64,000 nucleotides of DNA from Anaerolineales bacterium (GCA_020634615.1 JACKBI010000001.1:459261-523260), one strand, 5' to 3'; counted from the first letter of the stretch, positions 11,252-64,000 are shown. Notes: generated from the sequence alone by a model not told the origin. Numbers and translations: made by a program.

Positions 11252-11257
11252 TGCTTA

Positions 11258-12193: not shown

Positions 12194-12241
12194 ATCAACC
12201 TCAAGTTGGTGATTGTATGCAGACCTATCTGAGGAGCAACG

Positions 12242-13470: not shown

Positions 13471-13548
13471 ATTTGGTAGGCTACTATCCGCAGAGTTTTG
13501 GCCGAGTGAACCTATTGTTGTGACAAAACTTCCTCAAGGTGTATATCA

Positions 13549-14757: not shown

Positions 14758-14763
14758 GAGGTT

Positions 14764-14915: not shown

Positions 14916-14949
14916 GAATCTATCAGCCTAATTTGCGAGGAGGATCAAG

Positions 14950-16395: not shown

Positions 16396-16445
16396 ATACT
16401 GCTTCAAATCGGCCTCGGCAGCTATACAGCCCGATACATATACAA

Positions 16446-16474
16446 GGAGCGAGGCCACAATGTGTGGCCTCGCT
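16446..16474 (+). terminator. palindromic hairpin GAGCGAGGCCACA-AT-TGTGGCCTCGCTC
   Basis: Perfect 13-bp inverted repeat about 50 bp after the stop of the 14950..16395 gene. Confidence 0.45.
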
Positions 16475-16698
16475 CGCGATCTTAAGGTAACAACTCCTAA
16501 GCCAGAGACTGCATACACCTATGAGAGAACCAAATGCAACTCTCGACATCATCGCAGTAACCGGCAAACTCCCCCTGATTCTGAGAACCTCGAACTACTT
16601 ACCTGGGCATTTGCCAGGCAAGACCGAGGCACAAAACTGGCGCGAATGATCTTCTTTGTCTTCCATGATCGCAACATCCTTGGTCTGGGAAAGGCGAT

Positions 16699-50715: not shown

Positions 50716-51181
50716 CAATATGCCAACCACCCCAACGAAGTCCGGCTTTGCAGCAAAGCCGGACTTCTGGCTGTTACGCGTGCCGTTCATGAAAACAGAA
50801 GCTCACCTTTGCCGAAAAAGTCGAGCTTCTTATAAAACGTTGCCGGACACGTCCAACTCAAAGCGCCGAACCTGTGGGCAGATCCGGCGTTTCTTCAGTC
50901 AATCTCGTGTGACGTTAGCTGATGCGCATCCGCTTCACATCCACGAAGCCGGCCAGCACATTTCGCCCAGAGCTTTTCAAAAGTCGAGATCAAGCTCATC
51001 TCGGTCACCCGGAACGGGTCTGACGAACAACCTGCGCAGGCATTCGAGGCAGGTGAAGGGTCTCTCATGGAGTACGCGAGATGTCTCGCTGCGCAATGTG
51101 AACGTGCTTGTTGCCTTATCGAGCCGCTCAACATGACACATGCGGGACTTATGAGAAGCCCTGCATTTCGCCTTGCTGAGA

Positions 51182-51210
51182 TTGACCGCGTCTATCTCCG
51201 GTGGTATAGT
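51182..51210 (+). promoter_or_regulatory. sigma70-type promoter (TTGACC, 17-bp spacer, TATAGT) for the gene starting at 51245
   Basis: Hexamers and spacing seen directly. GGAG RBS 7 nt before the ATG. Confidence 0.45.
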
Positions 51211-51244
51211 AGTTCTTCGCACTACCATACCGTCTGGAGTCAAC

Positions 51245-52396
51245 ATGCCCGAAAACACCGCGATGGACACAATGCGTGATGAATACGAAATTGACACCTT
51301 GATCGAGCAGGCGACGCCGATATTGCGCCGCTACATCCTGACGCTGGAACAGGAAAACGCGCGCCTGCGGCAGGAACTGATGGATGCGCAAGGCACGGCG
51401 GCACGGCGGGAGCGCGCCGCGTTGGCCCGCGAAAGCCGCGAGCCGTCGGCCAACACCAGTGTGCCCACGCCGCGTTACGGCGACGATGTGATGGTGATCA
51501 CCGTCACTGCTCAGGGGCTGTGCAAGCGCACACCAGTCAACGAATACTCGGCACAGCGGCGGGGCGGCGTGGGCGTCTTCGACATCCAGACCAGCCGTGA
51601 TGACCAGGTGGCGCATGTGCTGGTCGCGCGCGAGGCCGCTGCCCTGCTGGTATTGAGCAGCCGCGGGCGCGCGTTTCGCGTCCCGGTCGAGACGTTGCCG
51701 CTGACAGAGATCCGCGGCCGTGGCGCCTCATTGCCCGAGCGTCTGATGTTCACCGGCGGTGAGACCATTGGCGCGCTGTTGGCGCTGGACGAGGAGCAGG
51801 ATGATCGCCCCAACGTACTGATCGCCACAGCCAGCGGCTTGCTGCGCTCGTTCCATCGCAACTACGTCGGTCCCCGCCTGCAACCCGGCACGTTGTTGGT
51901 TGAACCGGCCCGGGGCGGCTCACCGGCCGCGGCAACCCTGTCCCATGGCGGCGGCGACGTGCTGGTCGCGCTGCGCAGCGGCGTCGCCTACCGCTTCGCC
52001 GAGCAGCTGATTCGCCGGGAGGGGGTGCGCGGCATCCAGGTCCGCCCGGACGACGCAGTGGTCGGTCTGGCCGTCCTCGCGGCCGATGGCAGCGATGCCA
52101 TCTTCCTGGCCAGCGGCGAAGGACTGGGCACCCGCCGCGGCGATGATACTTTCTCCGCCAACAAATCGCCGGGCGGGCAAGGCAAGGTCATCATGAAGAC
52201 CGACGCACTGGCCGGACTTGCTGCCGTCACAGAGCAGAGTGAAGTGTTCTGCGTCAGCGGCCTTGGCAAGATCATCCGTTTTGCCGTGGCTGAAGTGCCG
52301 CCCAAGGCCGGCAATGTTCAAGGTGTCAACATCATGGATTGCCGCGGCGACCAACTGACCGCCATCACTGTCAGCACGCCACCTGCCCAGGATTGA
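51245..52396 (+). CDS. stand-alone DNA gyrase A C-terminal-domain (beta-pinwheel) like protein with an N-terminal coiled coil
   Basis: GyrA-box-like QRRGGVGV, then repeated blades (…GRGASLPE…, …PGGQGKVIMKT…, …GNVQGVNIM…). ~80 aa charged helical N-terminus (…LTLEQENARLRQELMDAQ…). Confidence 0.5.
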   Translation: MPENTAMDTMRDEYEIDTLIEQATPILRRYILTLEQENARLRQELMDAQGTAARRERAALARESREPSANTSVPTPRYGDDVMVITVTAQGLCKRTPVNEYSAQRRGGVGVFDIQTSRDDQVAHVLVAREAAALLVLSSRGRAFRVPVETLPLTEIRGRGASLPERLMFTGGETIGALLALDEEQDDRPNVLIATASGLLRSFHRNYVGPRLQPGTLLVEPARGGSPAAATLSHGGGDVLVALRSGVAYRFAEQLIRREGVRGIQVRPDDAVVGLAVLAADGSDAIFLASGEGLGTRRGDDTFSANKSPGGQGKVIMKTDALAGLAAVTEQSEVFCVSGLGKIIRFAVAEVPPKAGNVQGVNIMDCRGDQLTAITVSTPPAQD

Positions 52397-53196
52397 TGCC
52401 CATGTCTGCTACACCACACAGCGCGTTGGTACGTCCACCTGACCTCTCGTTTGTCGATGCGTTGGGACAGGTCGAGGGCGCACCCGCGATCGATTTCGAA
52501 TTGGCGTTGGCGCAACACCGCCTGTATGTGGCGGCGCTGGAGGCAGCGGGTCTTTCGGTTACGGTATTGCCGCCCGCAGAGGGCTTGCCCGATGCTTGCT
52601 TTGTGCAGGATGTCGCGCTGGTGCTGCCGGAACTGGTCTTGCTGGCCCGTCCGGCCATGCCGTCGCGGCAGGCGGAGATTGCCGCGATTCGAGCGTATTT
52701 GCCTCCCGACCGGCCGGTGGCAGCGGTCGAGGAGCCGGGCACGCTGGAGTGGGGCGACGTGTTGCGCATCGGCAACACGCTGTATGTTGGTCTGTCGGAG
52801 CGCACCAATGCGGCCGGTGCAGAGCAAGTGCGCGCTGCCGTGACGCCGCTGGGGATGGACGTTGAAACGGTTCCCGTGCCGGCCGGCTTGCATCTGCTCA
52901 GCGGGCTAAACTACCTGGGACGCTCGCCGCGCAACGCCGACGGCCCCGGGGTCGTTCTGGCGTGGCCGGCATACCGCGACCTGCCGATACTGGCCGGGCT
53001 GGATGTGATCGTCGTGCCGGAGAGCGAAGGCCCGGCCGCCAACGTACTGGCCCTTGGTGAAACGGTGCTCGTTCCTGCAGTGTACCCGCGCACCGCGGCC
53101 GAGCTTTGGCATCGCGGCTGGCGCGTGTTGTCGGTGCCCATCAGCGAGTTTGCCAAAGCGGATGGCGGCCTGACCTGTCTCAGCCTGCTGATGTGA
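52396..53196 (+). CDS. N(G),N(G)-dimethylarginine dimethylaminohydrolase / amidinotransferase-superfamily protein
   Basis: Start overlaps the upstream stop (TGATG). DDAH-like N-terminus …ALVRPPDLSFVDAL… and catalytic-Cys-type C-terminus …DGGLTCLSLLM. Confidence 0.6.
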   Translation: MPMSATPHSALVRPPDLSFVDALGQVEGAPAIDFELALAQHRLYVAALEAAGLSVTVLPPAEGLPDACFVQDVALVLPELVLLARPAMPSRQAEIAAIRAYLPPDRPVAAVEEPGTLEWGDVLRIGNTLYVGLSERTNAAGAEQVRAAVTPLGMDVETVPVPAGLHLLSGLNYLGRSPRNADGPGVVLAWPAYRDLPILAGLDVIVVPESEGPAANVLALGETVLVPAVYPRTAAELWHRGWRVLSVPISEFAKADGGLTCLSLLM

Positions 53197-53302
53197 AAGG
53201 CTGATTGGCCGTTTGAAGTCGGTTGTTCCTTCGCACTCGACCTGCTCTGACCAACCAGCTTTCGACACACCGACCTGAAACCTTGATACCATTGGAGGAG
53301 CT

Positions 53303-53944
53303 ATGCCGCGCGATCCATTGATCGATCGCAGCCAGGCCGCGCGTCTGGCCTTTTTTGAACAGGAACGGGATCTGTTTCACGATCTGGTGACCCACGGGCA
53401 GTCGCCAGAGGCGCTGCTGATCGCGTGCAGCGATTCGCGCATCGTCGGCGCCGGGCTGCTGGGGACACTGCCAGGTGAGGTCTTCGTGGTGCGGACGGTA
53501 GGCGCTGTTGTGCCGCCCTATGGCATCGGCCAACGATCGGTAGGCGCGGCGCTGGAGTTTGCGCTCGACAAACTGCGCGTGCGTCATGTGATCGTCTGCG
53601 GCCACACCGACTGCGGCGCGATCGAGGCGCTGGACGCGACCGTGGACATGCAGAAAACGCCGAACCTGGCACTGTGGCTGGAGAATCTGCGGCCGGCCAA
53701 GACCTCGGTCGACGCGCACCAGACATTTGCTGACCCCTATGCGCGCCAGCTTGCCATCCTCCAACAGAGCGTGCTGCTGCAGATGCGCAATCTCGAAACT
53801 TATCCGGTCGTACAATACGCCCTGAAGAATCAGACTGTCAGCCTCCACGGCTGGGTATACAGCCTGGAAAGCGGGCGCTTGAGCTACTACGATTCGGACG
53901 CAGGACGGTTCGTCGTGGAAGACGCTCAAGACAGGCAACCGTAA
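53303..53944 (+). CDS. can: beta-class carbonic anhydrase
   Basis: CSDSRIV … HTDCGAI zinc-ligand motifs. ~213 aa. Confidence 0.75.
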   Translation: MPRDPLIDRSQAARLAFFEQERDLFHDLVTHGQSPEALLIACSDSRIVGAGLLGTLPGEVFVVRTVGAVVPPYGIGQRSVGAALEFALDKLRVRHVIVCGHTDCGAIEALDATVDMQKTPNLALWLENLRPAKTSVDAHQTFADPYARQLAILQQSVLLQMRNLETYPVVQYALKNQTVSLHGWVYSLESGRLSYYDSDAGRFVVEDAQDRQP

Positions 53945-54263: not shown

Positions 54264-54293
54264 TTGACCGCGCCTGTTCTTCCCCACTAAAAT
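54264..54293 (+). promoter_or_regulatory. candidate sigma70-type promoter (TTGACC, 17-18 bp spacer, TAAAAT) in the AT-rich 700-bp leader upstream of the giant-protein genes
   Basis: Hexamers seen directly. No experimental support. Confidence 0.3.
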
Positions 54294-54414: not shown

Positions 54415-54657
54415 ATGGATCGCTTGGGATCAGCGCACCTTTTTCCTACCACGTCCCGCCGCCAGATGGCGCAGAACGAGGTGCTGCTGGCTGCCCGGGT
54501 GACATGTTGGGCTGGCGCGCGCTGCCAGTGTCGGGGCGGCGCCATTGGCGGACGGACGTTTAGTCGCAATGCAGTCGTCTATGGGAACGGCGAGGCCAAG
54601 GCAATCAGCTCCTGGCCTCGCTTTTTCGATGCCAGGGAGCAAGAGGAGTTTTCATGA
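54415..54657 (+). CDS. small Cys-containing ORF (80 aa) translationally coupled (ATGA) to the giant gene; possible leader peptide
   Basis: High-GC coding-like codon usage. The stop overlaps the ATG at 54654. Contains CWAGARCQC. Confidence 0.25.
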   Translation: MDRLGSAHLFPTTSRRQMAQNEVLLAARVTCWAGARCQCRGGAIGGRTFSRNAVVYGNGEAKAISSWPRFFDAREQEEFS

Positions 54658-57600
54658 ACCGCGTTAAACAGGCAATCTTCAAGACATGTCCGAAATCGGG
54701 TAAGGTCGTGGGCCTGCGCCGGCCAGAAGGTTGGCGCCGGATATTCATTCCGCTGATTGGTTTTGCGGCGCTGGTGTGGTTTCTCGTGCGAGTGGTTCCC
54801 AAACCGAGCCGGGCTGCCTATCCCTGCCAGCGGGTTGCGATGCCACTGGCGTCCGGGTTCGTTCTCTGGCTTGCAGGCATGGCCGGGGCAACCGTTGCGT
54901 TTGGAAAGGCGCGCAATCGCTTCCAGCAGGCGCGGTTCGCGACCGGCGCTCTGGCAGTGGTGGTCGCTGTCGTGGGTGTTGGTTGGGGCGTATTGACGTT
55001 GCAGGCGCCGGCAGCGGCTGAAACGGTTGCGTATACGGCCCATCCGGCCAACCAACCCATCGGTGTTGCCAAGGGATTGGCGCCCGGTCGTGTGGTCTGG
55101 GTCCATGACCCTGATCTGACCGACTGGGCCGGACCGGGAACCGGCGAGCGGTGGTGGCAGCACGTCAGCCAGTCGGTTGCGAATCAGGTGATGTCGCAGG
55201 CGCTGCGCAGCTATGCCAACACTACGTCCGACGCCGCGGCCTGGGATGCAATCTTCCGCAGTTACAACGGCGGCGCTCCCTACCAATCCAACCAGAAAAT
55301 CGCCATCAAGATCAATCTGACGACTTCGAACGCTGGCTCAGGCACTGCCAACATCGACAGCAACTACAACTGGGTTCCAGGCGGCGGTCTGAACTACGAC
55401 GCGATCGGTGAGTCGCCGCAGTTGATGCACGCGCTGCTGGATCAACTCGTGAACAAGGCCGGTGTGCCACAGGCCAACATCACTATCGGTGATCCGACCG
55501 GTCTGTGGATCAACGAGTTGTACGTGCCGCTGCACAACGATTTCCCCAACGTGGTTTACCTGGACAACTATGGTCAGCAGGGGCGAACTCGGGCCTCGTT
55601 CAGCTCAGTTCCGATGTACTGGAGCACTTCTGAGGCCAACGGCAAGACGCAGGACTATGTGCCGAACTATTTTGCCCAGGCTGACTATATGATCAATCTG
55701 GCGATCCTGAAGACCCACGATCGCAACGGCATTACTCTGACCGCCAAGAATCACTTCGGCTCGATGCTGCGAACGCCGGTGGCGCAACTGCGCGGCGTGA
55801 GCGGCAACTGGCTGGAGTTGCACCACTTGCTGCCCAGCGCGCCCTCGGCCAGTGAACCCAAGGTGCCGACCATGGGCAACTACCGGCCTCTGGTGGATCT
55901 CAACGGCAACCGAAACCTGGGCGGCAAGACTCTTCTCTATATGGTAGATGGCATCTTTGGCGGCAAGAACTGGAACTCCACGCCGTACACCTGGGCGATG
56001 ACTCCGTTCAACGGCGACTGGCCGTCCAGCCTCTTCCTTTCCATGGACCAGGTGGCCATCGACTCGGTGGGTTTCGACTTCCTGAGCCAGCAATGGCCTG
56101 ATCAGGCGCTGGTCAATGAGGGTGTGCAGGACTATCTGCACGAGATGGCGCTGGCCAATAACCCACCTTCGGGCACATGTTACGATCCGGAACACGATCA
56201 GACGTGCCAGCAGAGCATGGGCGTCCACGAACACTGGAACAACCCGATTGACAAGCAGTATACCCGCAATCTCGGCACGGGCAACGGCATCGAATTGATG
56301 TACATCAATCCGTTGACACCGACGCCTACACCAACGGCAGTGCCGCCGACTGCCACCAATACACCGGTGCCACCCACGGCCACCAACACAGCAGTGCCGC
56401 CGACCAACACGCCAGTGCCACCGACGGCCACCAACACAGCCGTGCCGCCAACCAATACACCGGTGCCGCCGACGGCCACCAACACAGCGGTGCCGCCGAC
56501 CAACACGCCAGTGCCACCGACAGCTACCAACACAGCAGTGCCGCCGACCAACACGCCAGTGCCACCAACGGCTACCAACACAGCAGTGCCGCCAACCAAT
56601 ACACCGGTGCCACCGACGGCCACCAACACAGCAGTGCCGCCGACCAATACGCCGGTGCCGCCGACGAGCACACCGGTGCCACCCACCGCGACGCCGACAC
56701 AATCGGTCTGCGGCGTACAGACCGTGCTGTTCGTTGGTTCCACCAATCCGCTGCCGGCCCGCGATCAGGTCCTGGTGAATCGTCTTACCGGGCAGGGCTA
56801 CGCGGTGGTTGTGCGCAGTGAGAGCCAGGCGGTGTCGTCCGATGCCAGCGGCAAGGCGCTGGTGATCATCTCGGATTCGGTCACTTCTGGCAATGTCAAC
56901 ATCAAGTTCCGCGATGTGGCGGTGCCTGTGATGACCTGGGAACCCGCTTTGCTGGACGACATGATGATGACCGGGACAGCCTACGGAACCAACAGCGGCG
57001 ATGCATCGAACCAGACGCAACTGGTCGTTAACAGCGGCCATCCGCTGGCAGCCGGCCTCAGTGGAACGGTGACGACCAGCAACGCCGCGCAGATGTACTT
57101 CTGGGGCGTACCCTCGGCCAGCGCTGATATCATCGCGACGATCGTCGGTCAGTCGGGACATGCGGCAATCTTTGCCTACGAGCCGGGCGACGCGATGATC
57201 GGCTTGACGGCGCCGGCCCGCCGGCTTGGCTATTACAATGGCTACGGCGCCGACTTTACCGCCGCCGGCTGGGGGCTGTGGGACGCCGCGGTGACATGGA
57301 TGGTTAACTGCCAGGCGCCGACCGCTACTCCGATCCCGACTAATACACCTGTGCCGCCGACAGCGACTCCGACCTACACGCCGACGCGGACACCAACCGC
57401 CACGCCGGTGCCGCCCACTGCGACGCCGATCCCGACCAATACACCGGTGCCGCCGACAGCCACTCCGACCTACACGCCAACGCGGACACCAACCAATACG
57501 CCGGTGCCGCCCACTGCGACGCCGATCCCGACCAATACGCCAGTGCCACCGACAGCGACTCCGACCTACACGCCGACGCGGACACCAACCGCCACGCCGG

Positions 57601-59216
57601 TGCCGCCAACTGCCACGCCGCTTCCAACTAACACCCCGGTGCCGCCAACAGCGACTCCGCTTCCAACCAACACACCAGTTCCGCCAACAGCGACTCCGGT
57701 GACCGTTGATGGTGTCGTGCTGCGCACCGATCTTGCGCCGGTAATCGACGGAACAATCGACCCGGTCTGGAGCGGCGCCAACCAGTATCCCATCCAGAAC
57801 GTGATCATCGGCAGTGCTGTGCCGGCGGCTGATCTTTCAGCTTCCTACCGGGCGCTATACGACGCCACCAACCTCTACCTGCTGGTGACCGTCAGCGATG
57901 AGACACTGATCAACGACAGCGGAACTTCCTGGTATTTCGATGACGGCGTCGAGCTATTCGTGGACGGCGATCACAGCCAGGGCGCCAGCTATGATGCCAA
58001 CGACTTCCAGTTTGGTGTGCGCTGGAGCGATGGCAACACGATCATTGCCGGCGCGAACTCAGCGCCGGTGCCCACTGGCGCGGTGGCCAGCCTGGCTTCT
58101 GCGCCCGGCGGTTACCGGCTCGAGATGCGGCTGCCTCTGTCGGGGCTGTCCATCAACCCGACGGCTGGCTACCAGTTTGGACTGGAAGTGCAGGTCAACG
58201 ATGACGATGACGGTGGAGATCGGGACACCAAGATCTCCTGGCACAGCCTGGATGACAACACCTGGATGTATCCAAGCCAGTTCGGAAGCGTAGCGCTCAG
58301 CAGCAGTACGGTACCAACACCGGTGCCGCCAACTGCCACCAACACACCAGTGCCGCCGACAGCAACACCTGTGCCGCCGACAGCGACGCCAGTCCCGCCG
58401 ACAGCGACGCCAGTGCCGCCGACACCCACACCGACTACACCTCCTCCCACAACCAACATGATGTACGTCAGTTCGACCACGGCTGGCAATGTTGGCGGGG
58501 TGGCGTTCAACGACGAGGATATCCTGGCATACAACAAGACGACCGGAGCATGGAGCATGCTGTGGGACGGCTCAGACGTTGGCATCACTGCCGATGTGAT
58601 CGCTTACTCGGTGCGGACTGACAACTCCATTCTGATGAGCTTCGCCAGCGCCATCACTGTATCCGGCCTCGGTACCGTGGATGACTCCGACATCGTGCGC
58701 TTCGTGCCCACGTCGTTGGGAACAAACACGGCTGGCAGCTTTGAGTTCTACTTCGACGGTTCCGACGTTGGACTGTCCAACAGCAGTGAGGACATCGACG
58801 CCATCACCTTCACGGCTGACGGTAAGCTGGTCATCAGCACGGCCGGATCGTACAGCGTGCCGGGTGTGTCCGGCGCCGATGAGGACTTGCTGGTCTTCAC
58901 TGCTTCCCAGCTTGGCCAGACTACCAGCGGAACCTGGGCGATGTACTTCGACGGATCTGACGTTGGCCTGAGCCAGTCATCGTCTGAGGATGTCAACGGC
59001 GCCTGGTTGGACGTGACCACTGGCAAGCTCTATCTGACGACCGTCGGAGCTTTTTCGGTGACCGGCGTGAGCGGTGACGGCGCAGATATCTTCATCTGCA
59101 CGCCGACATCCCTGGGATCGAACACCGCCTGCACGTACGGCCCTGGTCTCTATTGGGACGGTTCGGCCAACGGCTTCGCCGGCGAGATAGTTGATGGGTT
59201 TACCATCGTCCCATAA
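54654..59216 (+). CDS. giant cell-surface multidomain protein (1520 aa): N-terminal 3-TM anchor, DUF362-like domain, PT-repeat linker, class-I-glutamine-amidotransferase/ThuA-like domain, PT linker, CBM9-like domain, PT linker, C-terminal YFDGSDVGL-repeat domain
   Basis: N-terminal 550 aa is ~65% identical to the product of 59301..62375. Motifs AIKINLTT, AILKTHDRNGITLTAKNHFGS. CBM9-like block (…LYLLVTVSDETL…FDDGVELFVDGDH…). 4 internal repeats of (F/Y)xDGSDVGL. Confidence 0.65.
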   Translation: MNRVKQAIFKTCPKSGKVVGLRRPEGWRRIFIPLIGFAALVWFLVRVVPKPSRAAYPCQRVAMPLASGFVLWLAGMAGATVAFGKARNRFQQARFATGALAVVVAVVGVGWGVLTLQAPAAAETVAYTAHPANQPIGVAKGLAPGRVVWVHDPDLTDWAGPGTGERWWQHVSQSVANQVMSQALRSYANTTSDAAAWDAIFRSYNGGAPYQSNQKIAIKINLTTSNAGSGTANIDSNYNWVPGGGLNYDAIGESPQLMHALLDQLVNKAGVPQANITIGDPTGLWINELYVPLHNDFPNVVYLDNYGQQGRTRASFSSVPMYWSTSEANGKTQDYVPNYFAQADYMINLAILKTHDRNGITLTAKNHFGSMLRTPVAQLRGVSGNWLELHHLLPSAPSASEPKVPTMGNYRPLVDLNGNRNLGGKTLLYMVDGIFGGKNWNSTPYTWAMTPFNGDWPSSLFLSMDQVAIDSVGFDFLSQQWPDQALVNEGVQDYLHEMALANNPPSGTCYDPEHDQTCQQSMGVHEHWNNPIDKQYTRNLGTGNGIELMYINPLTPTPTPTAVPPTATNTPVPPTATNTAVPPTNTPVPPTATNTAVPPTNTPVPPTATNTAVPPTNTPVPPTATNTAVPPTNTPVPPTATNTAVPPTNTPVPPTATNTAVPPTNTPVPPTSTPVPPTATPTQSVCGVQTVLFVGSTNPLPARDQVLVNRLTGQGYAVVVRSESQAVSSDASGKALVIISDSVTSGNVNIKFRDVAVPVMTWEPALLDDMMMTGTAYGTNSGDASNQTQLVVNSGHPLAAGLSGTVTTSNAAQMYFWGVPSASADIIATIVGQSGHAAIFAYEPGDAMIGLTAPARRLGYYNGYGADFTAAGWGLWDAAVTWMVNCQAPTATPIPTNTPVPPTATPTYTPTRTPTATPVPPTATPIPTNTPVPPTATPTYTPTRTPTNTPVPPTATPIPTNTPVPPTATPTYTPTRTPTATPVPPTATPLPTNTPVPPTATPLPTNTPVPPTATPVTVDGVVLRTDLAPVIDGTIDPVWSGANQYPIQNVIIGSAVPAADLSASYRALYDATNLYLLVTVSDETLINDSGTSWYFDDGVELFVDGDHSQGASYDANDFQFGVRWSDGNTIIAGANSAPVPTGAVASLASAPGGYRLEMRLPLSGLSINPTAGYQFGLEVQVNDDDDGGDRDTKISWHSLDDNTWMYPSQFGSVALSSSTVPTPVPPTATNTPVPPTATPVPPTATPVPPTATPVPPTPTPTTPPPTTNMMYVSSTTAGNVGGVAFNDEDILAYNKTTGAWSMLWDGSDVGITADVIAYSVRTDNSILMSFASAITVSGLGTVDDSDIVRFVPTSLGTNTAGSFEFYFDGSDVGLSNSSEDIDAITFTADGKLVISTAGSYSVPGVSGADEDLLVFTASQLGQTTSGTWAMYFDGSDVGLSQSSSEDVNGAWLDVTTGKLYLTTVGAFSVTGVSGDGADIFICTPTSLGSNTACTYGPGLYWDGSANGFAGEIVDGFTIVP
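56344..56690 (+). repeat. in-frame 48-bp tandem repeat (about 6.5 units) encoding TNTPVPPTATNTAVPP
   Basis: Near-identical DNA units seen directly inside the giant gene. Confidence 0.6.
57321..57700 (+). repeat. in-frame 96-bp tandem repeat (about 3.5 units) encoding [32 protein letters not shown]
   Basis: Seen directly. A second Pro/Thr linker of the giant gene. Confidence 0.55.
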
Positions 59217-59227
59217 GCGACAATTTC

Positions 59228-59264
59228 CCGGTCCCGGATGGCCGATATGGCCATCCGGGACCGG
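59228..59264 (+). terminator. perfect 16-bp palindromic hairpin (CCGGTCCCGGATGGCC-GATAT-GGCCATCCGGGACCGG) between the two paralogous giant genes
   Basis: Seen directly, 12 bp after the stop of the first gene. No U-tract. Confidence 0.45.
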
Positions 59265-59300
59265 CTAACTGGCGATGAAGATCGCCTTGGAAGGTGAACG

Positions 59301-62300
59301 ATGAACGAGATCAAGAACAAGGTGTTCAAGGTCTGTCCCAAGACGGGAAGGGTTATTGCTGTGCGCCGGCCAGAGGGTTGGCGCCGGGTTTTTCTGCCGC
59401 TTGTGGGATTTCTGGCGCTGGTATGGTTTCTGATCCGCGTCGTGCCAAAGCCTGCCCGCGCGGCCTATCCCTGCCAGCGCGTTGCAGCGCCACTGGCGTC
59501 AGGGTTCGTCCTGTGGCTGGCAGGCATGGCCGGTGCGTCAGTTGCCTTCAGGCACGCACGTGGCCGCTTCCAGCAAGCCCGCTACCTGACCGGCGCGCTG
59601 GCGGTGTTGATCGCACTGATCGGTGTTGGCTGGGCAGCCGCAACCCTGCCACAAGGCGCGCAGGCCGGGCAGGCCCCCGAACATATCGAGTATACGCCAC
59701 ATCCAGCCAACCAGCCCATCGGCGTCGCCAAAGGCCTGTCACCGGGCCGCGTAGCCTGGTCCTATGATCCTCCTGTCACCGTTTGGAACGGTACCAGCAC
59801 GACAGCCGGCCAGCGCTGGTATGACCAGATCAGCCAGCCGAAGGCCAATGAAATGATGGAGTGGGCGCTGACCGGTTACGCTGGCGCGGGTACCAGCAGC
59901 TCAGCCTGGGATGCGATCTTCCGCTATTTCAACGGCGGCGCGCCCTACCAGGCCGGCGAAAAGGTGTTCATCAAGATCAACCTGACCACGTCCTATTCCA
60001 ACAGTTGTGCCGACAGCAACTACAACTGGACCATCAGCTGCATTGGCTCATCGCCGACAAGCTGGACCTACATCGGGCAATCGCCGCAACTGATGATCGC
60101 CTTATTGAATCAGCTGGTCAACGTCGCGGGGGTCGCCCAGGCCAACATCACTATCGGCGACTCGACCGGCCTGTGGGTCAACGAGCTGTACAACCCGGTC
60201 CATACTGCATTTCCCAACGTTCACTACATGGACGCGCGCGGCACGCTGGGTCGCACAGCGGCCGCCAGAAGCAACGTGCCGCTTTACTGGAGCACCAGCG
60301 AGGCCAACGGCAAAAACCAGGACTACATCCTGCAAGCCATTGCCGACGCGAAGTACGTGATCGACTTTGCCATCCTCAAGGTGCATGAACGCAACGGCAT
60401 TACAGTCACTGCCAAGAACCACTTCGGCTCGCTCAGCGGCGGCAACTCCGATGAGCGCAAACCGCCCACGACCAACTACTACAATATTCATCTGCGGCTG
60501 CCGCTGGAGACCGATTCCAACGCCTGGCCGCAGCGCGGCCAGATGGCGCAATACCGGCCGCTGGTAGACCTCAACGGCCACCAGCAGATGGGCGGCAAAA
60601 CGCTGCTGTACATGATAGACGGCATCTATGGCGGCAAGGGATGGAATGGTGTGCCGTCCAAGTGGGCCATGGCGCCATTCAACGGCCAGTGGCCGGCCAG
60701 CCTGTTCCTGTCCATGGACCAGGTGGCCATCGACTCGGTGGCCTTCGACTTCCTCAGCCAGCAGTGGCCCGATCTGGCCCTGGCCAACGAAGGCGTGCAG
60801 GACTACATGCACGAAATGGCGCTGGCCGACAACCCGCCATCTGGAACATTCTATGACCCAGAGCACGATGGTGTGCGTATGACCAGCCAGGGCGTGCATG
60901 AACACTGGAACAACCCGGTAGACAAGCAGTACACGCGCAATCTGGGGACCGGCAACGGCATCGAGTTGGTCAGAGTTCAGCAGTCTGAAGCATGCGGCCA
61001 ACAGACGGTGCTCTTCATCGGCAGTACAAACCCGCTGGAGAATCGCGATCAGATCCTTGTCAACCACCTTGCCACATCCGGTTACGGGATTACTGTGCGC
61101 AGCCAAACCCAGGCCACTGCTGCCGATGCCCTCGACGCTGACCTGATCATCATCTCAGATTCGGTCGATTCTACCAATGTCAACACGAAGTTTCGCGACT
61201 TAAGTATCCCCGTGATGGTTTGGGAGTCCTCGCTATTTGATGACATGAACATGACGGGCACTGTGAGCAATACGGACTACGGTAGCCAGGCCAGCCAGAC
61301 ACAGGTCAATATCGTGAGTTCCGGGCATCCACTGGCGGCTGGTCTGCCAGCCGGGCTGGTGACGACAACCGCCGCATCCCAGTCCTACCTGTGGGGCAAG
61401 CCGTCCGCCACGGCAGCCGTCGCCGCCCGCATCGCCGGCTCCCCCGACCACGCCGCAATCTTCGGATATGACGCAGGCGATTCTATGGTAGGCATGAAAG
61501 CGCCGGCACGCCGGGTAGGCTTCTTCAACGGCTACGGTTCCGACTTCACAGCAAACGGCTGGGCGCTCTACGACGCGGCTGTCAAATGGGCGCTGGAATG
61601 CGGATCGGTCAGCGGCGGCTTCTCGGTGGTCAACGCCGACACCGGTGAGGTCGTACGATCCCTCAACAACGGCGACACGCTGGAACTGACGACGTTGCCG
61701 GCCAACATCGCTTTCCGGGCCAACACCGATCCGGCGGTCACCGGCAGTGTCGTCTTCAACTTCGACGGAAGCTCGTCCACCGACAACAGCGCGCCTTACC
61801 AGTACGGCGCGGTGCCGCTAGAATGGACTCCGGACGTTGGACAACATACGATCAGCGCCCAACCCTTCTCAGCAGCTGACGGCGGCGGAACGGGAGGCGA
61901 GGCCCTGAGCCTCAGCTTCACTGTCACTAACACGCCGCTGGCCGTCGCGTTGGCTGGCTTCGATGCAACACCGGCCGGGGATCACGTGCTTGTCACGTGG
62001 GAAACCGTGTCGGAGATCGACAATGCCGGCTTCAACCTCTATCGCAGCGCGACTGATGTCGCACCAGAGGAACTTCTGGTCAACATGCCCAGCCAGGCGC
62101 CCGGCAGTGCTCAGGGTGCGCACTACACCTATCAAGACTTCGCCGTTCAGAACGGCCAGAGTTGGTACTACTGGCTGGAAGCCGTCGACCTGCAAGGCGG
62201 CACGTCGTTGCACGGTCCGGTGAACGCGACCGTACAAACGCCGACGGCCGTCACGATCCGTGACCTGCAGGCCGGCGTTGAGCCGCAACCCACTGGCGGA

Positions 62301-62375
62301 CTCTGGCTCGCGGCGCTGGCCGCACTGGTAGTGCTGGCTGGCGCAGTATGGCAAGGCCGACGCAAGCTCACTTGA
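59301..62375 (+). CDS. paralogous giant surface protein (1024 aa): the same 3-TM anchor, DUF362-like and GATase1-like domains, then a distinct C-terminal module ending in a hydrophobic helix plus RRK (sorting-signal-like)
   Basis: N-terminus MNEIKNKVFKVCPKTGRVIAVRRPEGWRRVFLPLVGFLALVWFLIRVVPKPARAAYPCQRV… is nearly identical to the upstream paralog. C-terminus …EPQPTGGLWLAALAALVVLAGAVWQGRRKLT. Confidence 0.65.
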   Translation: MNEIKNKVFKVCPKTGRVIAVRRPEGWRRVFLPLVGFLALVWFLIRVVPKPARAAYPCQRVAAPLASGFVLWLAGMAGASVAFRHARGRFQQARYLTGALAVLIALIGVGWAAATLPQGAQAGQAPEHIEYTPHPANQPIGVAKGLSPGRVAWSYDPPVTVWNGTSTTAGQRWYDQISQPKANEMMEWALTGYAGAGTSSSAWDAIFRYFNGGAPYQAGEKVFIKINLTTSYSNSCADSNYNWTISCIGSSPTSWTYIGQSPQLMIALLNQLVNVAGVAQANITIGDSTGLWVNELYNPVHTAFPNVHYMDARGTLGRTAAARSNVPLYWSTSEANGKNQDYILQAIADAKYVIDFAILKVHERNGITVTAKNHFGSLSGGNSDERKPPTTNYYNIHLRLPLETDSNAWPQRGQMAQYRPLVDLNGHQQMGGKTLLYMIDGIYGGKGWNGVPSKWAMAPFNGQWPASLFLSMDQVAIDSVAFDFLSQQWPDLALANEGVQDYMHEMALADNPPSGTFYDPEHDGVRMTSQGVHEHWNNPVDKQYTRNLGTGNGIELVRVQQSEACGQQTVLFIGSTNPLENRDQILVNHLATSGYGITVRSQTQATAADALDADLIIISDSVDSTNVNTKFRDLSIPVMVWESSLFDDMNMTGTVSNTDYGSQASQTQVNIVSSGHPLAAGLPAGLVTTTAASQSYLWGKPSATAAVAARIAGSPDHAAIFGYDAGDSMVGMKAPARRVGFFNGYGSDFTANGWALYDAAVKWALECGSVSGGFSVVNADTGEVVRSLNNGDTLELTTLPANIAFRANTDPAVTGSVVFNFDGSSSTDNSAPYQYGAVPLEWTPDVGQHTISAQPFSAADGGGTGGEALSLSFTVTNTPLAVALAGFDATPAGDHVLVTWETVSEIDNAGFNLYRSATDVAPEELLVNMPSQAPGSAQGAHYTYQDFAVQNGQSWYYWLEAVDLQGGTSLHGPVNATVQTPTAVTIRDLQAGVEPQPTGGLWLAALAALVVLAGAVWQGRRKLT

Positions 62376-62573
62376 GCCTGCCGATTCAGCCCATCGGTGT
62401 CGGGTGAGCAGCAGTCGCCGGAGCATGACTCCGGCGACTGCGCGCCTCGTGCGACCTGGAAATTGATCTTGTGTTTGACGACGTCTGTGCGCGATAATCC
62501 CGACAATCGCCAGCCGGTTTCCTGACATTGATTTTCGGACAGGATAACAATTGATATTTACTGTGGAGGACTC

Positions 62574-64000
62574 ATGAGAGCGTTGAAGTGGTCGGTTTTG
62601 TTGGCAGTTCTGTTTGTTCTGATTGCTGTTTCCATGGCCAGAATCGCGGGAGCCAGCGGCGGCGGGCGAGTTGGTTTTTCGGGCAACCCGGCCACCAACG
62701 CCGGGCAAAACTGCACGTCATGTCACACTGCGGGCGCCGCCACGCCCGCAGTCGTTATCGCGGGACCGGCGGTAGTGAATGCCGGCGCCACCAACAGCTA
62801 CGTCGTGACCATCACCGGCGGGCCGGGCGTGACCGGCGGGTTCAATGCGTCAACCAGCGGATTTCTGGGCCAGTTCAGCACGGTCGATGCTGAGACCGAG
62901 GTGCTGGCAGGCGAGATCACGCACAACGATCCCAAGTTCTTCAGCGGTGGGCAGGTGCAGTTCACCTTTGACTGGACCGCGCCAGCCAGCGATAGCGTCG
63001 TGACCATGTACGCGGCCGGCAACTCGACCAACGGCGGGGGCAACACGGCCGGCGATGGCGTCAACACCACGTCCATGGCGATCACGGTGCAGAACGGCAA
63101 CCCCAACCCGACCCCCACACCGCCGCCGCCGCCCTCGTCCATCTCTTTGCAGCAAGTGGCCAGCGGTCTGTCGCAGCCGGTAGTGATCACCAACGCCTTC
63201 GACAAGCGGCTTTTCGTCGTCGAGCGCGCCGGGCGGATCCGTATCATCGACGCCAATGGAACGCTGCTGGGGACGCCGTTCCTGAATATCACCGGCCAGG
63301 TCGATAGCACTGAAGGCGAGCAAGGGCTGCTGGGGCTGGCTTTTCATCCCAACTACGTCAACAACGGCTACTTCTACGTCTATTACACCTACGATCCGCC
63401 GGGGACTAATCTGGATCGCACGCGTATCTCGCGCTTTACCCGCAGCGCCGGCAACGCGAACCTGGCCAACGCTGCCAGCGAGCTGATCCTGATGGAATAC
63501 GAGCAGCCCTTTGGCAACCACAACGCGGGTGACATGCACTTTGGCGAAGACGGCTACCTCTACATCGCCTCCGGCGACGGCGGCGGGTCCTACTGGGCCA
63601 GCGTCGGCCAGGTGCCGCCGATGATGTTTAGCCAGGGACCGGGCGATCTGCTGGGCAAGATATTGCGCATCGATGTCAATACGCCGGCCGGTCCTGATAC
63701 CGGTCCCGACTGCACCATCGCCGGCGGGACGAATTACAGTATCCCGCCCGGCAACGCATTCAGCAACGGGACGGGCAACGGCTGCGACGAGATCTGGGCC
63801 TTTGGCGTGCGCAACCCCTGGCGTTTCAGCTTCGACCGCGCCGACGGTTCCGGCTGGATCGCAGACGTGGGGCAGAGCCAGTGGGAGGAGGTGAATCGCT
63901 TCGCCGCCGGCACGGTGGGCGGACTGAACTACGGCTGGTCATGTTTCGAAGGCACGCACGCCACTGCCGAATACTACAACTATTTCGATAACACGGCCTG
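62574..64000 (+). CDS. PQQ-dependent (soluble glucose/sorbosone dehydrogenase-like) sugar dehydrogenase, partial at the window end, with an N-terminal signal and a Cys-containing extension
   Basis: GGAGGA RBS. Signal peptide MRALKWSVLLAVLFVLIAVSMA. GSDH-family blocks (…LLGLAFHPNYVNNGYFYVYYT…NHNAGDMHFGEDGYLYIASGDGG…GKILRIDV…EIWAFGVRNPWRFSFD…). The ORF is open to position 64000. Confidence 0.6.
   Translation, partial: MRALKWSVLLAVLFVLIAVSMARIAGASGGGRVGFSGNPATNAGQNCTSCHTAGAATPAVVIAGPAVVNAGATNSYVVTITGGPGVTGGFNASTSGFLGQFSTVDAETEVLAGEITHNDPKFFSGGQVQFTFDWTAPASDSVVTMYAAGNSTNGGGNTAGDGVNTTSMAITVQNGNPNPTPTPPPPPSSISLQQVASGLSQPVVITNAFDKRLFVVERAGRIRIIDANGTLLGTPFLNITGQVDSTEGEQGLLGLAFHPNYVNNGYFYVYYTYDPPGTNLDRTRISRFTRSAGNANLANAASELILMEYEQPFGNHNAGDMHFGEDGYLYIASGDGGGSYWASVGQVPPMMFSQGPGDLLGKILRIDVNTPAGPDTGPDCTIAGGTNYSIPPGNAFSNGTGNGCDEIWAFGVRNPWRFSFDRADGSGWIADVGQSQWEEVNRFAAGTVGGLNYGWSCFEGTHATAEYYNYFDNTA

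What the first reader, a model, noticed from the sequence alone, without database searches (positions are those of the whole stretch)
54654..62375. Tandem pair of giant paralogous surface proteins with a shared 3-TM, DUF362-like, GATase1-like N-terminal half and different C-terminal modules
Genes 54654..59216 (1520 aa) and 59301..62375 (1024 aa) share a near-identical N-terminus: a conserved cytoplasmic stretch MxxxKxxIFKxCPKxGKVxxxRRPEGWRR, three hydrophobic helices, then a ~430-aa domain with DUF362-like motifs (IKINLTT, AILKTHDRNGITLTAKNHFGS). A flavodoxin/GATase1 (ThuA-like) domain follows, starting CGxQTVLFxGSTNPL. The first adds CBM9-like and a novel 4x (F/Y)xDGSDVGL repeat domain, separated by Pro/Thr linkers built from 48- and 96-bp tandem DNA repeats. 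The second ends with a fibronectin/Ig-like region and the tail …EPQPTGG-LWLAALAALVVLAGAVW-QGRRKLT, which resembles a sortase/exosortase-type C-terminal sorting signal. A strong palindromic hairpin separates them. I know no described system with this architecture. The CBM9 and ThuA-like parts point to polysaccharide interaction at the cell surface, and the DUF362-like domain has no known function.
Basis: partly seen in the sequence, partly recalled or inferred. Interest (0 to 1): 0.8.

Follow-up and report, generated by a model that had tools for sequence, protein, structure and literature searches.

The report
Membrane-anchored LarA-fold surface protein pair
Two neighbouring giant genes of an uncultured Chloroflexota bacterium encode cell-surface proteins whose shared head is a membrane-anchored enzyme-like domain of unknown function (DUF362, lactate-racemase-like fold); they sit in a conserved cluster with two sugar dehydrogenases that carry the same sugar-binding and anchoring modules, which points to an unstudied way of processing polysaccharide chain ends outside the cell.

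Summary

New findings:
- The DUF362 ectodomain has a LarA (lactate racemase) fold.
- The 3-TM + DUF362 head is a large family across four phyla (at least 1,293 clusters at 50% identity). Its membrane-loop motif and H-x3-G-x5-K motif are nearly invariant.
- The pair belongs to a conserved cluster with two PQQ-type GSDH dehydrogenases (C, D) that carry the same tails: two heads × two tails.
- The "novel" 4-repeat domain is a widespread Chloroflexota C-terminal module.
- The "PTGG" sorting motif is not conserved in orthologs.

DUF362-CBM9 fusions were noted in 2017, and no DUF362 protein has a known function in the literature searched. My best reading is a set of extracytoplasmic enzymes that process carbohydrate chain ends. 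The chemistry is unknown.

The parts
54654..59216 (+). Gene A, 1520 aa: 3-TM + DUF362 head, PT linker, GATase1-like domain, PT linker, CBM9, PT linker, 250-aa C-terminal domain
   Evidence: ORF; Pfam; paralogy to B
54654..54998 (+). A residues 1-115: short cytoplasmic segment (FKxCPKxGK) and three TM helices with the invariant loop motif W..RV.PKP.R..YPCQ
   Evidence: Alignments A2 and A3; helices taken from the AF2 model of paralog B; motif about 94-100% conserved in 87 members from 4 phyla
55023..56312 (+). A residues 124-553: extracytoplasmic DUF362 domain with LarA-like fold (IKINL, LKTH-x3-G-x5-KN motifs)
   Evidence: Pfam PF04015 40.9 bits; fold shown for paralog B
56340..56674 (+). Pro/Thr linker 1, built from 48-bp (144-bp) tandem repeats
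   Evidence: TRF; 64% P+T
56703..57314 (+). A residues 684-887: GATase1/ThuA-like fold domain (APARR motif, no Cys/His triad)
   Evidence: 60% identical to the B domain, 81% to the gene D domain; fold from the B model
57316..57698 (+). Pro/Thr linker 2, built from 96-bp and 39-bp tandem repeats
   Evidence: TRF
57744..58301 (+). A residues 1031-1216: CBM9 carbohydrate-binding module
   Evidence: Pfam CBM9_1 E=3.7e-45; 1i82 E=1e-24 with Trp71/Trp175 equivalents conserved
58344..58432 (+). Pro/Thr linker 3 (21-bp repeats)
   Evidence: TRF
58446..59213 (+). A residues 1265-1520: 4-repeat C-terminal domain, a widespread Chloroflexota C-terminal module with no Pfam model
   Evidence: 1,382 homologs; the domain ends within 5 aa of the C-terminus in 115 of 120
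59228..59264 (+). Intergenic perfect hairpin (16-bp stem, 5-nt loop) with no U-tract
   Evidence: hairpins of different sequence at the same place in orthologous loci
59301..62375 (+). Gene B, 1024 aa: 3-TM + DUF362 head, GATase1-like domain, Ig-like region, FN3-like (GFNLYR) region, hydrophobic/Arg tail
   Evidence: ORF; 100% identical to an NCBI MAG Anaerolineales protein
59301..59645 (+). B residues 1-115: cytoplasmic segment and 3 TM helices (27-47, 57-89, 94-115)
   Evidence: AF2 model; profile search
59682..60980 (+). B residues 128-560: DUF362 ectodomain with LarA-like fold; H362-x3-G366-x5-K372
60990..61607 (+). B residues 564-769: GATase1/ThuA-like fold domain
61608..62240 (+). B residues 770-980: Ig-like region (weak Big_7) followed by an FN3-like 'WETxSExDNxGFNLYR' region
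   Evidence: Big_7 E=0.017, below cut-off; 51% identical to the gene C tail; boundaries by sequence reading
62241..62372 (+). B tail: PTAVTIRDLQAG..PTGG, 17 hydrophobic residues, QGRRKLT
   Evidence: only the hydrophobic + basic pattern is conserved
62411..62441 (+). Second hairpin (13-bp stem) after gene B
62574..64000 (+). 5' part of gene C (1248 aa in identical contigs): signal peptide, choice-of-anchor V domain with CxxCH, GSDH (PQQ-type dehydrogenase), CBM9, GATase1-like domain, Ig, FN3-like, TM/RRRR tail
   Evidence: the window part is identical to L001

Best explanation
A and B are two paralogous, modular, extracytoplasmic proteins of an Anaerolineales (Chloroflexota) bacterium.

Shown: each starts with a deeply conserved head made of a short cytoplasmic segment, three TM helices and an outward-facing DUF362 domain with the LarA (lactate racemase) fold. 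Each then has a GATase1/ThuA-fold domain without a catalytic triad, followed by retention and targeting modules. A carries long Pro/Thr linkers, a CBM9 with an intact sugar clamp and a 250-aa C-terminal domain that many Chloroflexota surface proteins share. B carries Ig-like and FN3-like regions and a hydrophobic/Arg tail. The next two genes, C and D, are PQQ-type GSDH dehydrogenases that carry the same two kinds of tail. The cluster is therefore two heads (3TM-DUF362, GSDH) crossed with two tails. The order A-B-C is kept in other genomes at about 70-82% identity.

Inferred: the DUF362 heads are enzymes, not mere binders. They work at the same place and on the same substrate as the GSDH heads, namely chain ends of plant-type polysaccharides (CBM9 prefers reducing ends). 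One copy is held close to the membrane (B, C). The other is pushed outward on Pro/Thr stalks and fixed in the wall or sheath by the C-terminal domain (A, D).

Speculative: GSDH oxidises the reducing-end aldose to an aldonolactone or aldonate, and the LarA-like DUF362 head then acts on that 2-hydroxy-acid end or on the sugar itself. The invariant TM-loop motif takes part in catalysis or in supplying a cofactor or substrate, rather than only anchoring.
For: Paralogy and domains.

Enzyme-like conservation: K225, N227, D287, H362, G366, K372, N373, H397, D473, E505, E534 and H535 are essentially invariant in 87 members from four phyla at 42-75% identity. The H-x3-G-x5-K spacing equals LarA H174-x3-G178-x5-K184 (LarA sequence verified against 5huq).

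Head as a unit: the TM-module profile finds 1,293 clusters at 50% identity, always N-terminal. All 59 hits of at least 450 aa also carry the DUF362 module. At least 586 loci occur in species-representative genomes.

Carbohydrate context: CBM9 hits 1i82 at E=1e-24 with both clamp Trp aligned, and the reducing end is the preferred CBM9 ligand (PMC8280721). Family members carry dockerin, CBM9, DUF1349 and PKD tails. Planctomycete neighbours include sulfatases, Tat-Gfo/Idh/MocA oxidoreductases and Laminin_G_3 proteins.

Cluster logic: C and D contain GSDH + CBM9 + the same GATase1-like domain. Heads A-B are 63% identical and C-D 76%. Tails A-D are 81% identical and B-C 51% over 430 aa. A-B-C is conserved in L005, L006 and L095.

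ThuA is part of the ThuAB sugar dehydrogenase (PMC8121099).
Against: No DUF362 protein has a demonstrated activity, and no biochemical characterisation turned up. Sequence-level similarity to LarA is not significant (hhalign prob 0.18). The residue equivalences rest on motif spacing, not on a superposition I could inspect. LarA chemistry needs the nickel-pincer nucleotide made in the cytoplasm, and a Sec-type TM-anchored ectodomain has no obvious way to receive it. The GSDH partnership appears only in the Chloroflexota orthologs: 2 of 84 other loci in the tblastn scan (L005, L006), plus L095. It cannot explain the family as a whole. Another tandem DUF362 pair lacks GSDH. The AF2 model of the head is only moderately confident (pLDDT 76), and its C-terminal 50 residues and residues 115-138 are poorly modelled.
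Confidence: 0.5

Rival explanations
1. Envelope-biogenesis enzyme. The 3-TM + DUF362 head acts on a membrane-embedded, probably lipid-linked, substrate or modifies the cell's own wall or sheath polymer. The invariant, positively charged TM1-TM2 loop (RV.PKP.R..YPCQR) would bind a phosphate-bearing lipid carrier. The C-terminal modules would only position the enzyme.
For: The TM loop is as conserved as the putative active site across four phyla, which is unusual for a simple anchor. The TM module is never found without DUF362. Short family members have no CBM at all. Many tails are adhesin or sheath-type modules such as DUF11, SdrD_B neighbours and Flg_new_2.
Against: Fusions to CBM9 with an intact plant-glycan clamp, to dockerins and to DUF1349, and neighbours such as sulfatases, point to foreign polysaccharides. 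No glycosyltransferase or flippase is a recurrent neighbour in 80 loci.
Confidence: 0.2
2. True LarA-type enzyme. The DUF362 head binds a nickel-pincer nucleotide (or a related tethered cofactor) on K372 and epimerises the C2 of aldonate chain ends made by the GSDH partners.
For: LarA fold. The H-x3-G-x5-K motif has LarA spacing and is invariant. The product of an aldose dehydrogenase at a reducing end is a 2-hydroxy acid, the substrate class of the LarA superfamily (PMC11770544). GSDH genes share the same tails.
Against: LarA H108 has no His counterpart (D287 sits at the topologically matching place, by my reading of the sequence). hhalign is not significant. There is no route for loading the cofactor outside the cell. 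larB/C/E were not looked for. Most family members have no GSDH neighbour.
Confidence: 0.1
3. Non-catalytic surface scaffold or adhesin. The DUF362 and GATase1-like domains are binding modules, and the proteins only tether the cell or other enzymes to polysaccharide.
For: The GATase1-like domain has no catalytic triad. Its stand-alone relatives are small secreted proteins or lipoproteins encoded next to TonB-dependent receptors, as ligand-binding partners would be. Tails are adhesin-like.
Against: About 25 invariant polar residues (His, Lys, Asp, Glu, Asn) in the DUF362 domain at 42% overall identity are typical of an active site. The head occupies the position that catalytic modules take in CBM- or dockerin-bearing proteins.
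Confidence: 0.1
4. B (and C) are substrates of a dedicated C-terminal sorting enzyme (sortase, exosortase or rhombosortase-like) that cleaves the tail and links the protein to the wall.
For: The tail has the tripartite look of G/P/A-rich spacer, about 17 hydrophobic residues and an Arg cluster in B, in all 10 orthologs and in C. The N-terminal domain of C is a 'choice-of-anchor V' domain, a family defined by its varied C-terminal anchors.
Against: No conserved signature motif: PTGG occurs in this protein only. There are only sub-threshold hits, and to different models (GPS-CTERM 18.3 against 28; JDVT-CTERM 13.7 against 27; no LPXTG). No sorting enzyme appears in the parts of the window annotated. 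A plain C-terminal TM anchor explains the same pattern.
Confidence: 0.12

Closest known systems
LarA / lactate racemase superfamily (DUF2088, PF09861; PDB 5huq, 7s91, 9eia)
   Different: No significant sequence match. Extracytoplasmic and held by three TM helices instead of cytoplasmic and soluble. Fused to CBM, dockerin or surface modules. LarA His108 is not matched. No evidence for the nickel-pincer cofactor.
DUF362 (PF04015), including the DUF362-CBM9(-dockerin) proteins noted by Wong et al. 2017 (PMC5742341)
   Same: Both proteins pass the Pfam threshold. A has the DUF362 + CBM9 combination already reported in beaver and moose enrichment metagenomes and in Sorangium.
   Different: Pfam describes DUF362 as found in iron-sulphur proteins, and there are no Fe-S cysteine clusters here. 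The obligatory 3-TM module, the GATase1-like insert and the pairing with GSDH genes do not appear in the literature I could search.
ThuA-like / GATase1-like proteins (PDB 1t0b, 4jqs, 3rht); ThuA of the ThuAB 3-keto-disaccharide-forming dehydrogenase
   Different: No PF06283 hit. 11-15% identity. No Cys-His-Glu triad. Its own invariant APARR motif. Forms its own unannotated family of ~230-250-aa secreted proteins next to TonB-dependent receptors in Proteobacteria.
CBM9-2 of Thermotoga maritima Xyn10A (PDB 1i82/1i8a)
   Same: Clear sequence homology (E=1e-24). Both clamp tryptophans and Glu77, Gln96 and Gln151 equivalents are conserved, so reducing-end binding is expected.
   Different: Appended to a DUF362 or GSDH head, not to a glycoside hydrolase. 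The Arg98 equivalent is not conserved.
Fungal PQQ-dependent pyranose dehydrogenase (AA12 with AA8 cytochrome and CBM1) - analogy from my own knowledge
   Same: Genes C and D combine a GSDH-type PQQ dehydrogenase with a CxxCH-containing domain and a CBM, the same logic of a carbohydrate-targeted extracellular sugar dehydrogenase.
   Different: Bacterial. The domain types differ (choice-of-anchor V, CBM9). They are cell-anchored and paired with DUF362 proteins. Not tested here.
C-terminal sorting or retention domains (T9SS CTD, PEP-CTERM/MYXO-CTERM type signals, SLH domains) - analogy
   Same: The 250-aa domain of A is always at the extreme C-terminus of diverse passenger proteins. The B/C tails look like tripartite signals.
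   Different: No sequence match to any curated model. No cognate machinery identified. Function untested.

Membership tests
DUF362 (PF04015) | Match to the Pfam HMM above the gathering score (24 bits) | tested here: met
   A 40.9 bits (255-474); B 39.0 bits (263-483)
LarA superfamily (DUF2088 / Lar_N) | Significant sequence or profile match to LarA | tested here: not met
   No Lar_N hit in Pfam at E<=0.1; the A2 profile finds no LarA chain in the PDB; hhalign prob 0.18
LarA superfamily (DUF2088 / Lar_N) | LarA two-domain alpha/beta fold | tested here: met
LarA superfamily (DUF2088 / Lar_N) | Cofactor-tethering Lys184 and catalytic/Ni-binding His108, His174, His200 | tested here: inconclusive
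   H362-x3-G-x5-K372 mirrors H174-x3-G-x5-K184, and H397 is invariant. However, D287 sits where H108 would be, and no residue-level superposition was available
LarA superfamily (DUF2088 / Lar_N) | Nickel-pincer nucleotide cofactor and larB/larC/larE genes in the genome | not testable with these tools
   Only 64 kb of the genome is available; no cofactor assay is possible
ThuA (PF06283) | Match to the Pfam HMM | tested here: not met
   No family at E<=10 for the isolated domain
ThuA / class I glutamine amidotransferase-like fold | Flavodoxin-like GATase1 fold | tested here: met
Class I glutamine amidotransferase (catalytic) | Conserved Cys-His-Glu catalytic triad | tested here: not met
   No conserved Cys or His among 107 homologs; invariant residues are A172, R175 and R176
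CBM9 | Pfam CBM9_1 match and aromatic clamp (Trp71, Trp175 of TmCBM9-2) | tested here: met
   154.5 bits; 1i82 E=1e-24 with W aligned to W at both positions; clamp residues as given in PMC8280721
Sortase substrate (LPXTG-type signal) | LPXTG-like motif conserved before the hydrophobic stretch; match to the LPXTG anchor model | tested here: not met
   No LPXTG model hit at E<=10; 'PTGG' is absent from all 10 orthologs
GPS-CTERM / other curated C-terminal sorting domains | Score above the NCBIfam cut-off | tested here: not met
   GPS-CTERM 18.3 bits against 28; MYXO-CTERM 7.8 against 20; JDVT-CTERM 13.7 against 27 for gene C
Any sorting system | Cognate sorting enzyme encoded in the genome | not testable with these tools
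   Whole genome not available; none seen in the annotated parts of the window
Intrinsic terminator | GC-rich hairpin followed by a U-tract | tested here: not met
   The hairpin is present, but the 3' flank is GCUAACUGG with no U-run
Iron-sulphur DUF362 proteins | 4Fe-4S cysteine clusters | tested here: not met
   No ferredoxin-type Pfam hit; only two conserved Cys (C12, C58), and they lie on opposite sides of TM1

The most novel reading that the evidence does not exclude
The 3-TM + DUF362 head is a new class of extracytoplasmic enzyme with LarA-type chemistry: hydride-transfer epimerisation or isomerisation at a carbon next to a carboxylate or carbonyl. Its invariant membrane loop (RV.PKP.R..YPCQR) supplies or holds a cofactor across the membrane. 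Together with the co-encoded PQQ dehydrogenases that carry the same CBM9, GATase1-like and anchor tails, it would form a previously unknown oxidise-then-isomerise pathway for polysaccharide reducing ends at the cell surface of Chloroflexota. Relatives would do related chemistry in the periplasm of Planctomycetota and Verrucomicrobiota.
Probability: 0.12. Interest if true: 0.85.

Novelty: new variant of a known kind. Interest (0 to 1): 0.55.

Why it matters
DUF362 is an old, large Pfam family without a single known activity. The subfamily found here is abundant in the main uncultured polysaccharide degraders of soils, sediments and digesters: Anaerolineae, Phycisphaerae/Sedimentisphaerales, Pirellulales and Verrucomicrobiota. 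It is repeatedly fused to CBM9 and dockerins, the hallmark of carbohydrate-active enzymes. This window adds three concrete handles: a LarA-type fold with an invariant His/Lys motif to mutate, an obligatory conserved membrane module, and a natural 'two heads × two tails' cluster that names a probable partner enzyme (a PQQ sugar dehydrogenase) and a probable substrate feature (reducing ends). That makes the function directly testable. If the head proves catalytic, it would define a new CAZy-type family and possibly the first LarA-like chemistry outside the cytoplasm. The analysis also brings out two unannotated domain families: the GATase1-like APARR domain and the 250-aa Chloroflexota C-terminal domain.

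Tried and rejected
- Pfam and NCBIfam on the isolated middle domain, the TM region and the C-terminal domain gave nothing above threshold. The only hits were a weak DUF4984 and a weak Big_7.
- Sequence-profile searches of the PDB with the head (A2) and with the C-terminal domain (A4) found nothing.
- hhalign of the head profile against LarA was not significant, so I do not claim residue-level homology.
- I tested whether the GSDH partnership is general. It holds only in the Chloroflexota orthologs, so I rejected it as a family-wide rule.
- I searched for other copies of the hairpin arm in the window to test for a REP-like element. There are none beyond chance.
- The Fe-S redox reading suggested by the Pfam text is rejected because there are no Cys clusters.
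- A Tat signal is rejected. The 'RRPEGWRR' pair is not conserved (family consensus GLRxxxxxxxxLFP), and two more TM helices follow.
- A third structure prediction, for the C-terminal domain, was not possible. The afdb50 fold library was unavailable.
- The window could not be searched for sortase or exosortase genes comprehensively. The gene lists for about 3.5-30 kb and 44-64 kb show none.


Full report
**1. The observation**

The ORF listing returns exactly the two ORFs described: 54654..59216 (1520 aa, gene A) and 59301..62375 (1024 aa, gene B), both on the + strand. BLASTP of A against B gives 63% identity over the first ~560 residues (E=0) and 60% over a second block, A686-886/B565-767 (E=3e-65). 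The paralogy is far beyond chance, although 'near-identical' overstates it.

Pfam assigns DUF362 to both proteins (40.9 and 39.0 bits, cut-off 24) and CBM9_1 to A1031-1216 (154.5 bits). NCBIfam has no model for either protein.

Tandem Repeats Finder confirms that the Pro/Thr linkers are built from DNA repeats: 48 bp x6.5 at 56355-56666, 96 bp x3.6 at 57316-57659, plus 39- and 21-bp arrays. The linkers are 64-74% Pro+Thr.

The intergenic hairpin is a perfect 16-bp stem with a 5-nt loop at 59228-59264 (dG -48.5 kcal/mol, z -7.1, 0 of 200 shuffles as stable). It has no U-tract and is not a repeated element in the window. A second hairpin follows B at 62411-62441. Orthologous loci have equally strong hairpins of unrelated sequence at the same A-B junction, so this is a position-conserved mRNA feature.

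**2. Origin**

B is 100% identical to an NCBI protein named 'MAG: DUF362 domain-containing protein [Anaerolineales bacterium]'. Full-length orthologs at 70-82% identity come from Caldilineae and Anaerolineae MAGs. The window is therefore from an uncultured Chloroflexota bacterium.

**3. The head (residues 1-560)**

An alignment of 43 relatives (A2) shows that the most conserved stretch is not in the DUF362 domain. It lies in and after the first hydrophobic helix: L40, W42, R46, V47, P49, K50, P51, R53, Y56, P57, C58 and Q59 are invariant.

The AlphaFold model (pLDDT 76, pTM 0.71) has three long helices at 27-47, 57-89 and 94-115, then a well-modelled alpha/beta domain.

A profile of the first ~125 residues was searched against 1.84 billion representative proteins. 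It finds 1,293 clusters at E<=1e-3 (928 at 1e-10), always at the N-terminus. All 59 hits of at least 450 aa also contain the DUF362 module. The TM module and this DUF362 subfamily therefore form one unit.

They occur in Chloroflexota and even more in Planctomycetota (Phycisphaerae, Sedimentisphaerales, Pirellulales), and also in Verrucomicrobiota and Acidobacteriota. All are MAGs.

Across 87 of these proteins (42-75% identical) the TM-loop motif is essentially invariant. So are about 25 polar ectodomain residues: K225, N227, D287, H362, G366, K372, N373, H397, D473, E505, E534, H535 and others. That pattern is what an active site looks like, not a lectin or an anchor.

**4. Fold of the head**

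This agrees with Pfam placing DUF362 and DUF2088/LarA in one clan (PMC11770544).

Read directly from the sequences, the invariant 'LK(S/T)H-x3-G-x5-KN' of the family has the same spacing as LarA His174-x3-Gly178-x5-Lys184. These are the catalytic histidine and the lysine that tethers the nickel-pincer nucleotide; the residue roles come from my knowledge of the LarA literature, and the LarA sequence was verified against 5huq. hhalign places H362 on H174, but the alignment is not significant (prob 0.18). I therefore treat this as a lead, not as proof. LarA His108 has no histidine counterpart.

The literature searches turned up no biochemical characterisation of any DUF362 protein. Wong et al. 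2017 already listed DUF362-CBM9-dockerin as a recurrent architecture and a candidate new carbohydrate-active family (PMC5742341).

**5. The middle domain**

It has no Pfam or NCBIfam hit even at E<=10. It does have 131 homologs. Most are stand-alone proteins of 230-250 aa described as secreted proteins or lipoproteins, from Paraburkholderia, Sphingomonas, Dyella, Duganella and Pedobacter. Some carry T9SS tails.

There is no conserved Cys or His. The invariant residues are A172, R175 and R176 (motif APARR), with D21, S57, E80 and Y161 nearly invariant. It is therefore not a glutaminase.

In Sphingomonas and Paraburkholderia the stand-alone gene lies immediately downstream of a TonB-dependent receptor gene. 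In Paraburkholderia an ECF sigma/FecR pair lies upstream. That suggests a ligand-binding role. ThuA itself is part of the ThuAB dehydrogenase that makes 3-keto-disaccharides (PMC8121099).

**6. The tails**

A's CBM9 matches T. maritima Xyn10A CBM9-2 directly (1i82, E=1e-24). Tryptophans align with both clamp residues, Trp71 and Trp175, and the Glu77, Gln96 and Gln151 equivalents are kept. The clamp residues and the preference of CBM9 for reducing ends are described in PMC8280721.

A's last 255 residues, the '4x (F/Y)xDGSDVGL' domain, are not novel to this protein. There are 1,382 hits at 57-73% identity. In 115 of the 120 listed, the domain ends within five residues of the C-terminus. It follows Pro/Thr linkers behind many different passengers: proprotein-convertase P domain, PKD, cadherin-like, FN3 and Big_7. 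It has no Pfam model and no PDB relative by sequence. The most economical reading is a Chloroflexota-wide C-terminal retention or sorting domain.

B's tail was examined in ten orthologs and in gene C. What is conserved is 'HGPV..PTAV(T)L..(L/F).A', a G/A/P-rich spacer, about 17 hydrophobic residues and an Arg cluster. The PTGG of this protein is not conserved. Curated sorting-signal models give only sub-threshold hits, and to different families (GPS-CTERM 18.3 against 28; JDVT-CTERM 13.7 against 27). There is no LPXTG hit. A plain C-terminal membrane anchor explains this as well as a sorting signal does.

**7. The context changes the picture**

A third large gene starts at 62574 and runs off the window. 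In identical contigs it is 1248 aa (gene C). It consists of a signal peptide, a choice-of-anchor V domain with a CxxCH motif (NF041895, 142 bits), GSDH (PQQ-type glucose/sorbosone dehydrogenase), CBM9, the same GATase1-like domain, and the same Ig-like + FN3-like + hydrophobic/RRRR tail as B.

A fourth gene (D, at least 1353 aa, cut by the contig end) has the same N-terminus and GSDH, two CBM9 modules, Pro/Thr linkers and a GATase1-like domain.

Pairwise identities sort the four proteins cleanly:
- Heads: A-B 63%, C-D 76%.
- GATase1-like domain: A-D 81%, A-B 60%, A-C 44%.
- B-C tail: 51% over 430 residues.

The cluster is therefore two kinds of head crossed with two kinds of tail. The order (DUF362-CBM9 protein, B-type protein, GSDH-CBM9 protein) recurs in three other lineages: L005, L006 and L095.

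Elsewhere in the family the neighbours differ. 18 of 80 loci carry two or more family ORFs. In Planctomycetota the recurrent neighbours are a ~350-aa beta-propeller-like protein immediately downstream (14 loci), Laminin_G_3 proteins (10), Tat-type Gfo/Idh/MocA oxidoreductases (9) and sulfatases (8). Another Chloroflexota tandem pair has no GSDH.

**8. How it most likely works**

Shown: both proteins place a conserved LarA-fold domain outside the cytoplasmic membrane on a conserved 3-TM base. They add a triad-less GATase1-fold domain and then either a stalked CBM9 plus a wall or sheath-type C-terminal domain (A) or a compact Ig/FN3 tail with a second membrane anchor (B). PQQ-type sugar dehydrogenases are built on the same two chassis next door.

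Inferred: heads that share chassis act on the same substrate in the same two layers of the envelope, membrane-proximal for B and C and distal for A and D. The substrate is a plant-type glycan chain end recognised by CBM9. The DUF362 head is catalytic.

Speculative: the dehydrogenase turns the reducing end into a lactone or aldonate, that is, a 2-hydroxy acid, and the LarA-like head acts on it. The invariant, positively charged TM1-TM2 loop with its single cysteine takes part in catalysis or in cofactor or substrate supply.

The main difficulties:
- No DUF362 activity is known.
- The LarA cofactor is made in the cytoplasm.
- The GSDH link is lineage-specific.

I put 0.5 on the general statement (an extracytoplasmic, carbohydrate-directed enzyme pair partnered with the dehydrogenases) and about 0.1 on the specific LarA-type chemistry.

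**9. Comparison with known systems, and novelty**

Membership in DUF362 and CBM9 is met. Membership in LarA/DUF2088 and in ThuA is not met at sequence level but is met at fold level. The catalytic GATase triad, LPXTG-type signals and curated CTERM signals were tested and are not met.

The sequences are public and annotated as DUF362 proteins, and the DUF362-CBM9 association has been published, so this is not categorically new. I did not find the following in the literature searched:
- The LarA-fold assignment of this extracytoplasmic subfamily with its invariant His/Lys motif.
- The obligatory conserved 3-TM module.
- The GATase1-like APARR domain family.
- The 250-aa C-terminal domain family.
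- The two-heads × two-tails cluster with PQQ dehydrogenases.

I rate it a new variant of a known kind, interest 0.55. It is a good, testable lead for a new carbohydrate-active family, not a surprise that overturns anything.

Noticed in passing
window 62574-64000 (+), continued in L001:13274-17020 and L003:17268-21328: Two further giant genes follow B. C (1248 aa) and D (at least 1353 aa) each have a signal peptide, a choice-of-anchor V domain with a single CxxCH motif, GSDH (PQQ-type dehydrogenase), CBM9 (x1 or x2) and the same GATase1-like domain and tails as B and A. A bacterial, cell-anchored counterpart of CBM-bearing PQQ sugar dehydrogenases.
   Followed up: partly
window 56340-56674, 57316-57698; variants: Gene A occurs in different assemblies as 1376, 1408, 1440, 1472, 1520 and 1552 aa, and is broken in two assemblies. 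The steps of 32 or 48 aa equal whole 96-bp or 48-bp repeat units. This is either real copy-number variation of the Pro/Thr linkers or assembly collapse.
   Followed up: partly
proteins P0046, P0063, P0079, P0085, P0091, P0097, P0100, P0102 and others: Many short members of the 3-TM DUF362 family, and other Chloroflexota proteins, end in a short C-terminal motif (Y/F)(L/I)PL(V/I)(L/V)R at or within a few residues of the C-terminus. It looks like an undescribed C-terminal signal.
   Followed up: no
L091:3827-6714, L093:3511-6762: Stand-alone homologs of the GATase1-like APARR domain in Sphingomonas and Paraburkholderia are encoded directly downstream of (in Sphingomonas overlapping) a TonB-dependent receptor gene. 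In Paraburkholderia an ECF sigma/FecR pair lies upstream, suggesting a receptor-associated ligand-binding lipoprotein.
   Followed up: partly
window ~8000-16500: A low-GC island (50% against ~61% elsewhere) carries about ten + strand ORFs with no Pfam hit. One of its proteins (13549-14757) is listed in 96 blocks of the public collection (23 contigs read), so the island may be mobile or widespread.
   Followed up: partly
window 54415-54657 (+): An 80-aa ORF is called in all assemblies. Its stop overlaps the ATG of gene A (ATGA). It has no Pfam hit and an Arg/Ala-rich composition, so it is probably not a real gene, but it lies in the 700-bp leader. A sigma-70-like site (TTGACC-18-TAAAAT) is at 54264-54293.
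   Followed up: no
L058:2944-4014 and 13 other Planctomycetota loci: A ~350-aa secreted protein with BNR/Kelch-like beta-propeller signatures (weak Beta-prop_BT_1020 hit) lies immediately downstream of the 3-TM DUF362 gene in 14 of 80 loci. In four of these the ORF is about twice as long (668-676 aa). It is the most frequent conserved neighbour outside Chloroflexota.
   Followed up: partly
window 26048-28594 (+): An 848-aa protein with no Pfam domain sits next to an iron-dependent repressor gene and ABC-transporter genes.
   Followed up: no
window 51173-53944: The genes upstream of the pair look unrelated to it: a GyrA C-terminal-repeat-only protein (383 aa), a DDAH/ADI-like protein and a beta-carbonic anhydrase. 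The upstream neighbours differ in orthologous loci, where prolyl-tRNA synthetase genes are found instead.
   Followed up: partly
L094:19169-23575: Next to another tandem DUF362-CBM9 pair (P0013 + P0062) lie genes for a Rieske protein, a di-haem CCP/MauG peroxidase and a copper amine oxidase-like protein. This is another redox neighbourhood for the family.
   Followed up: no
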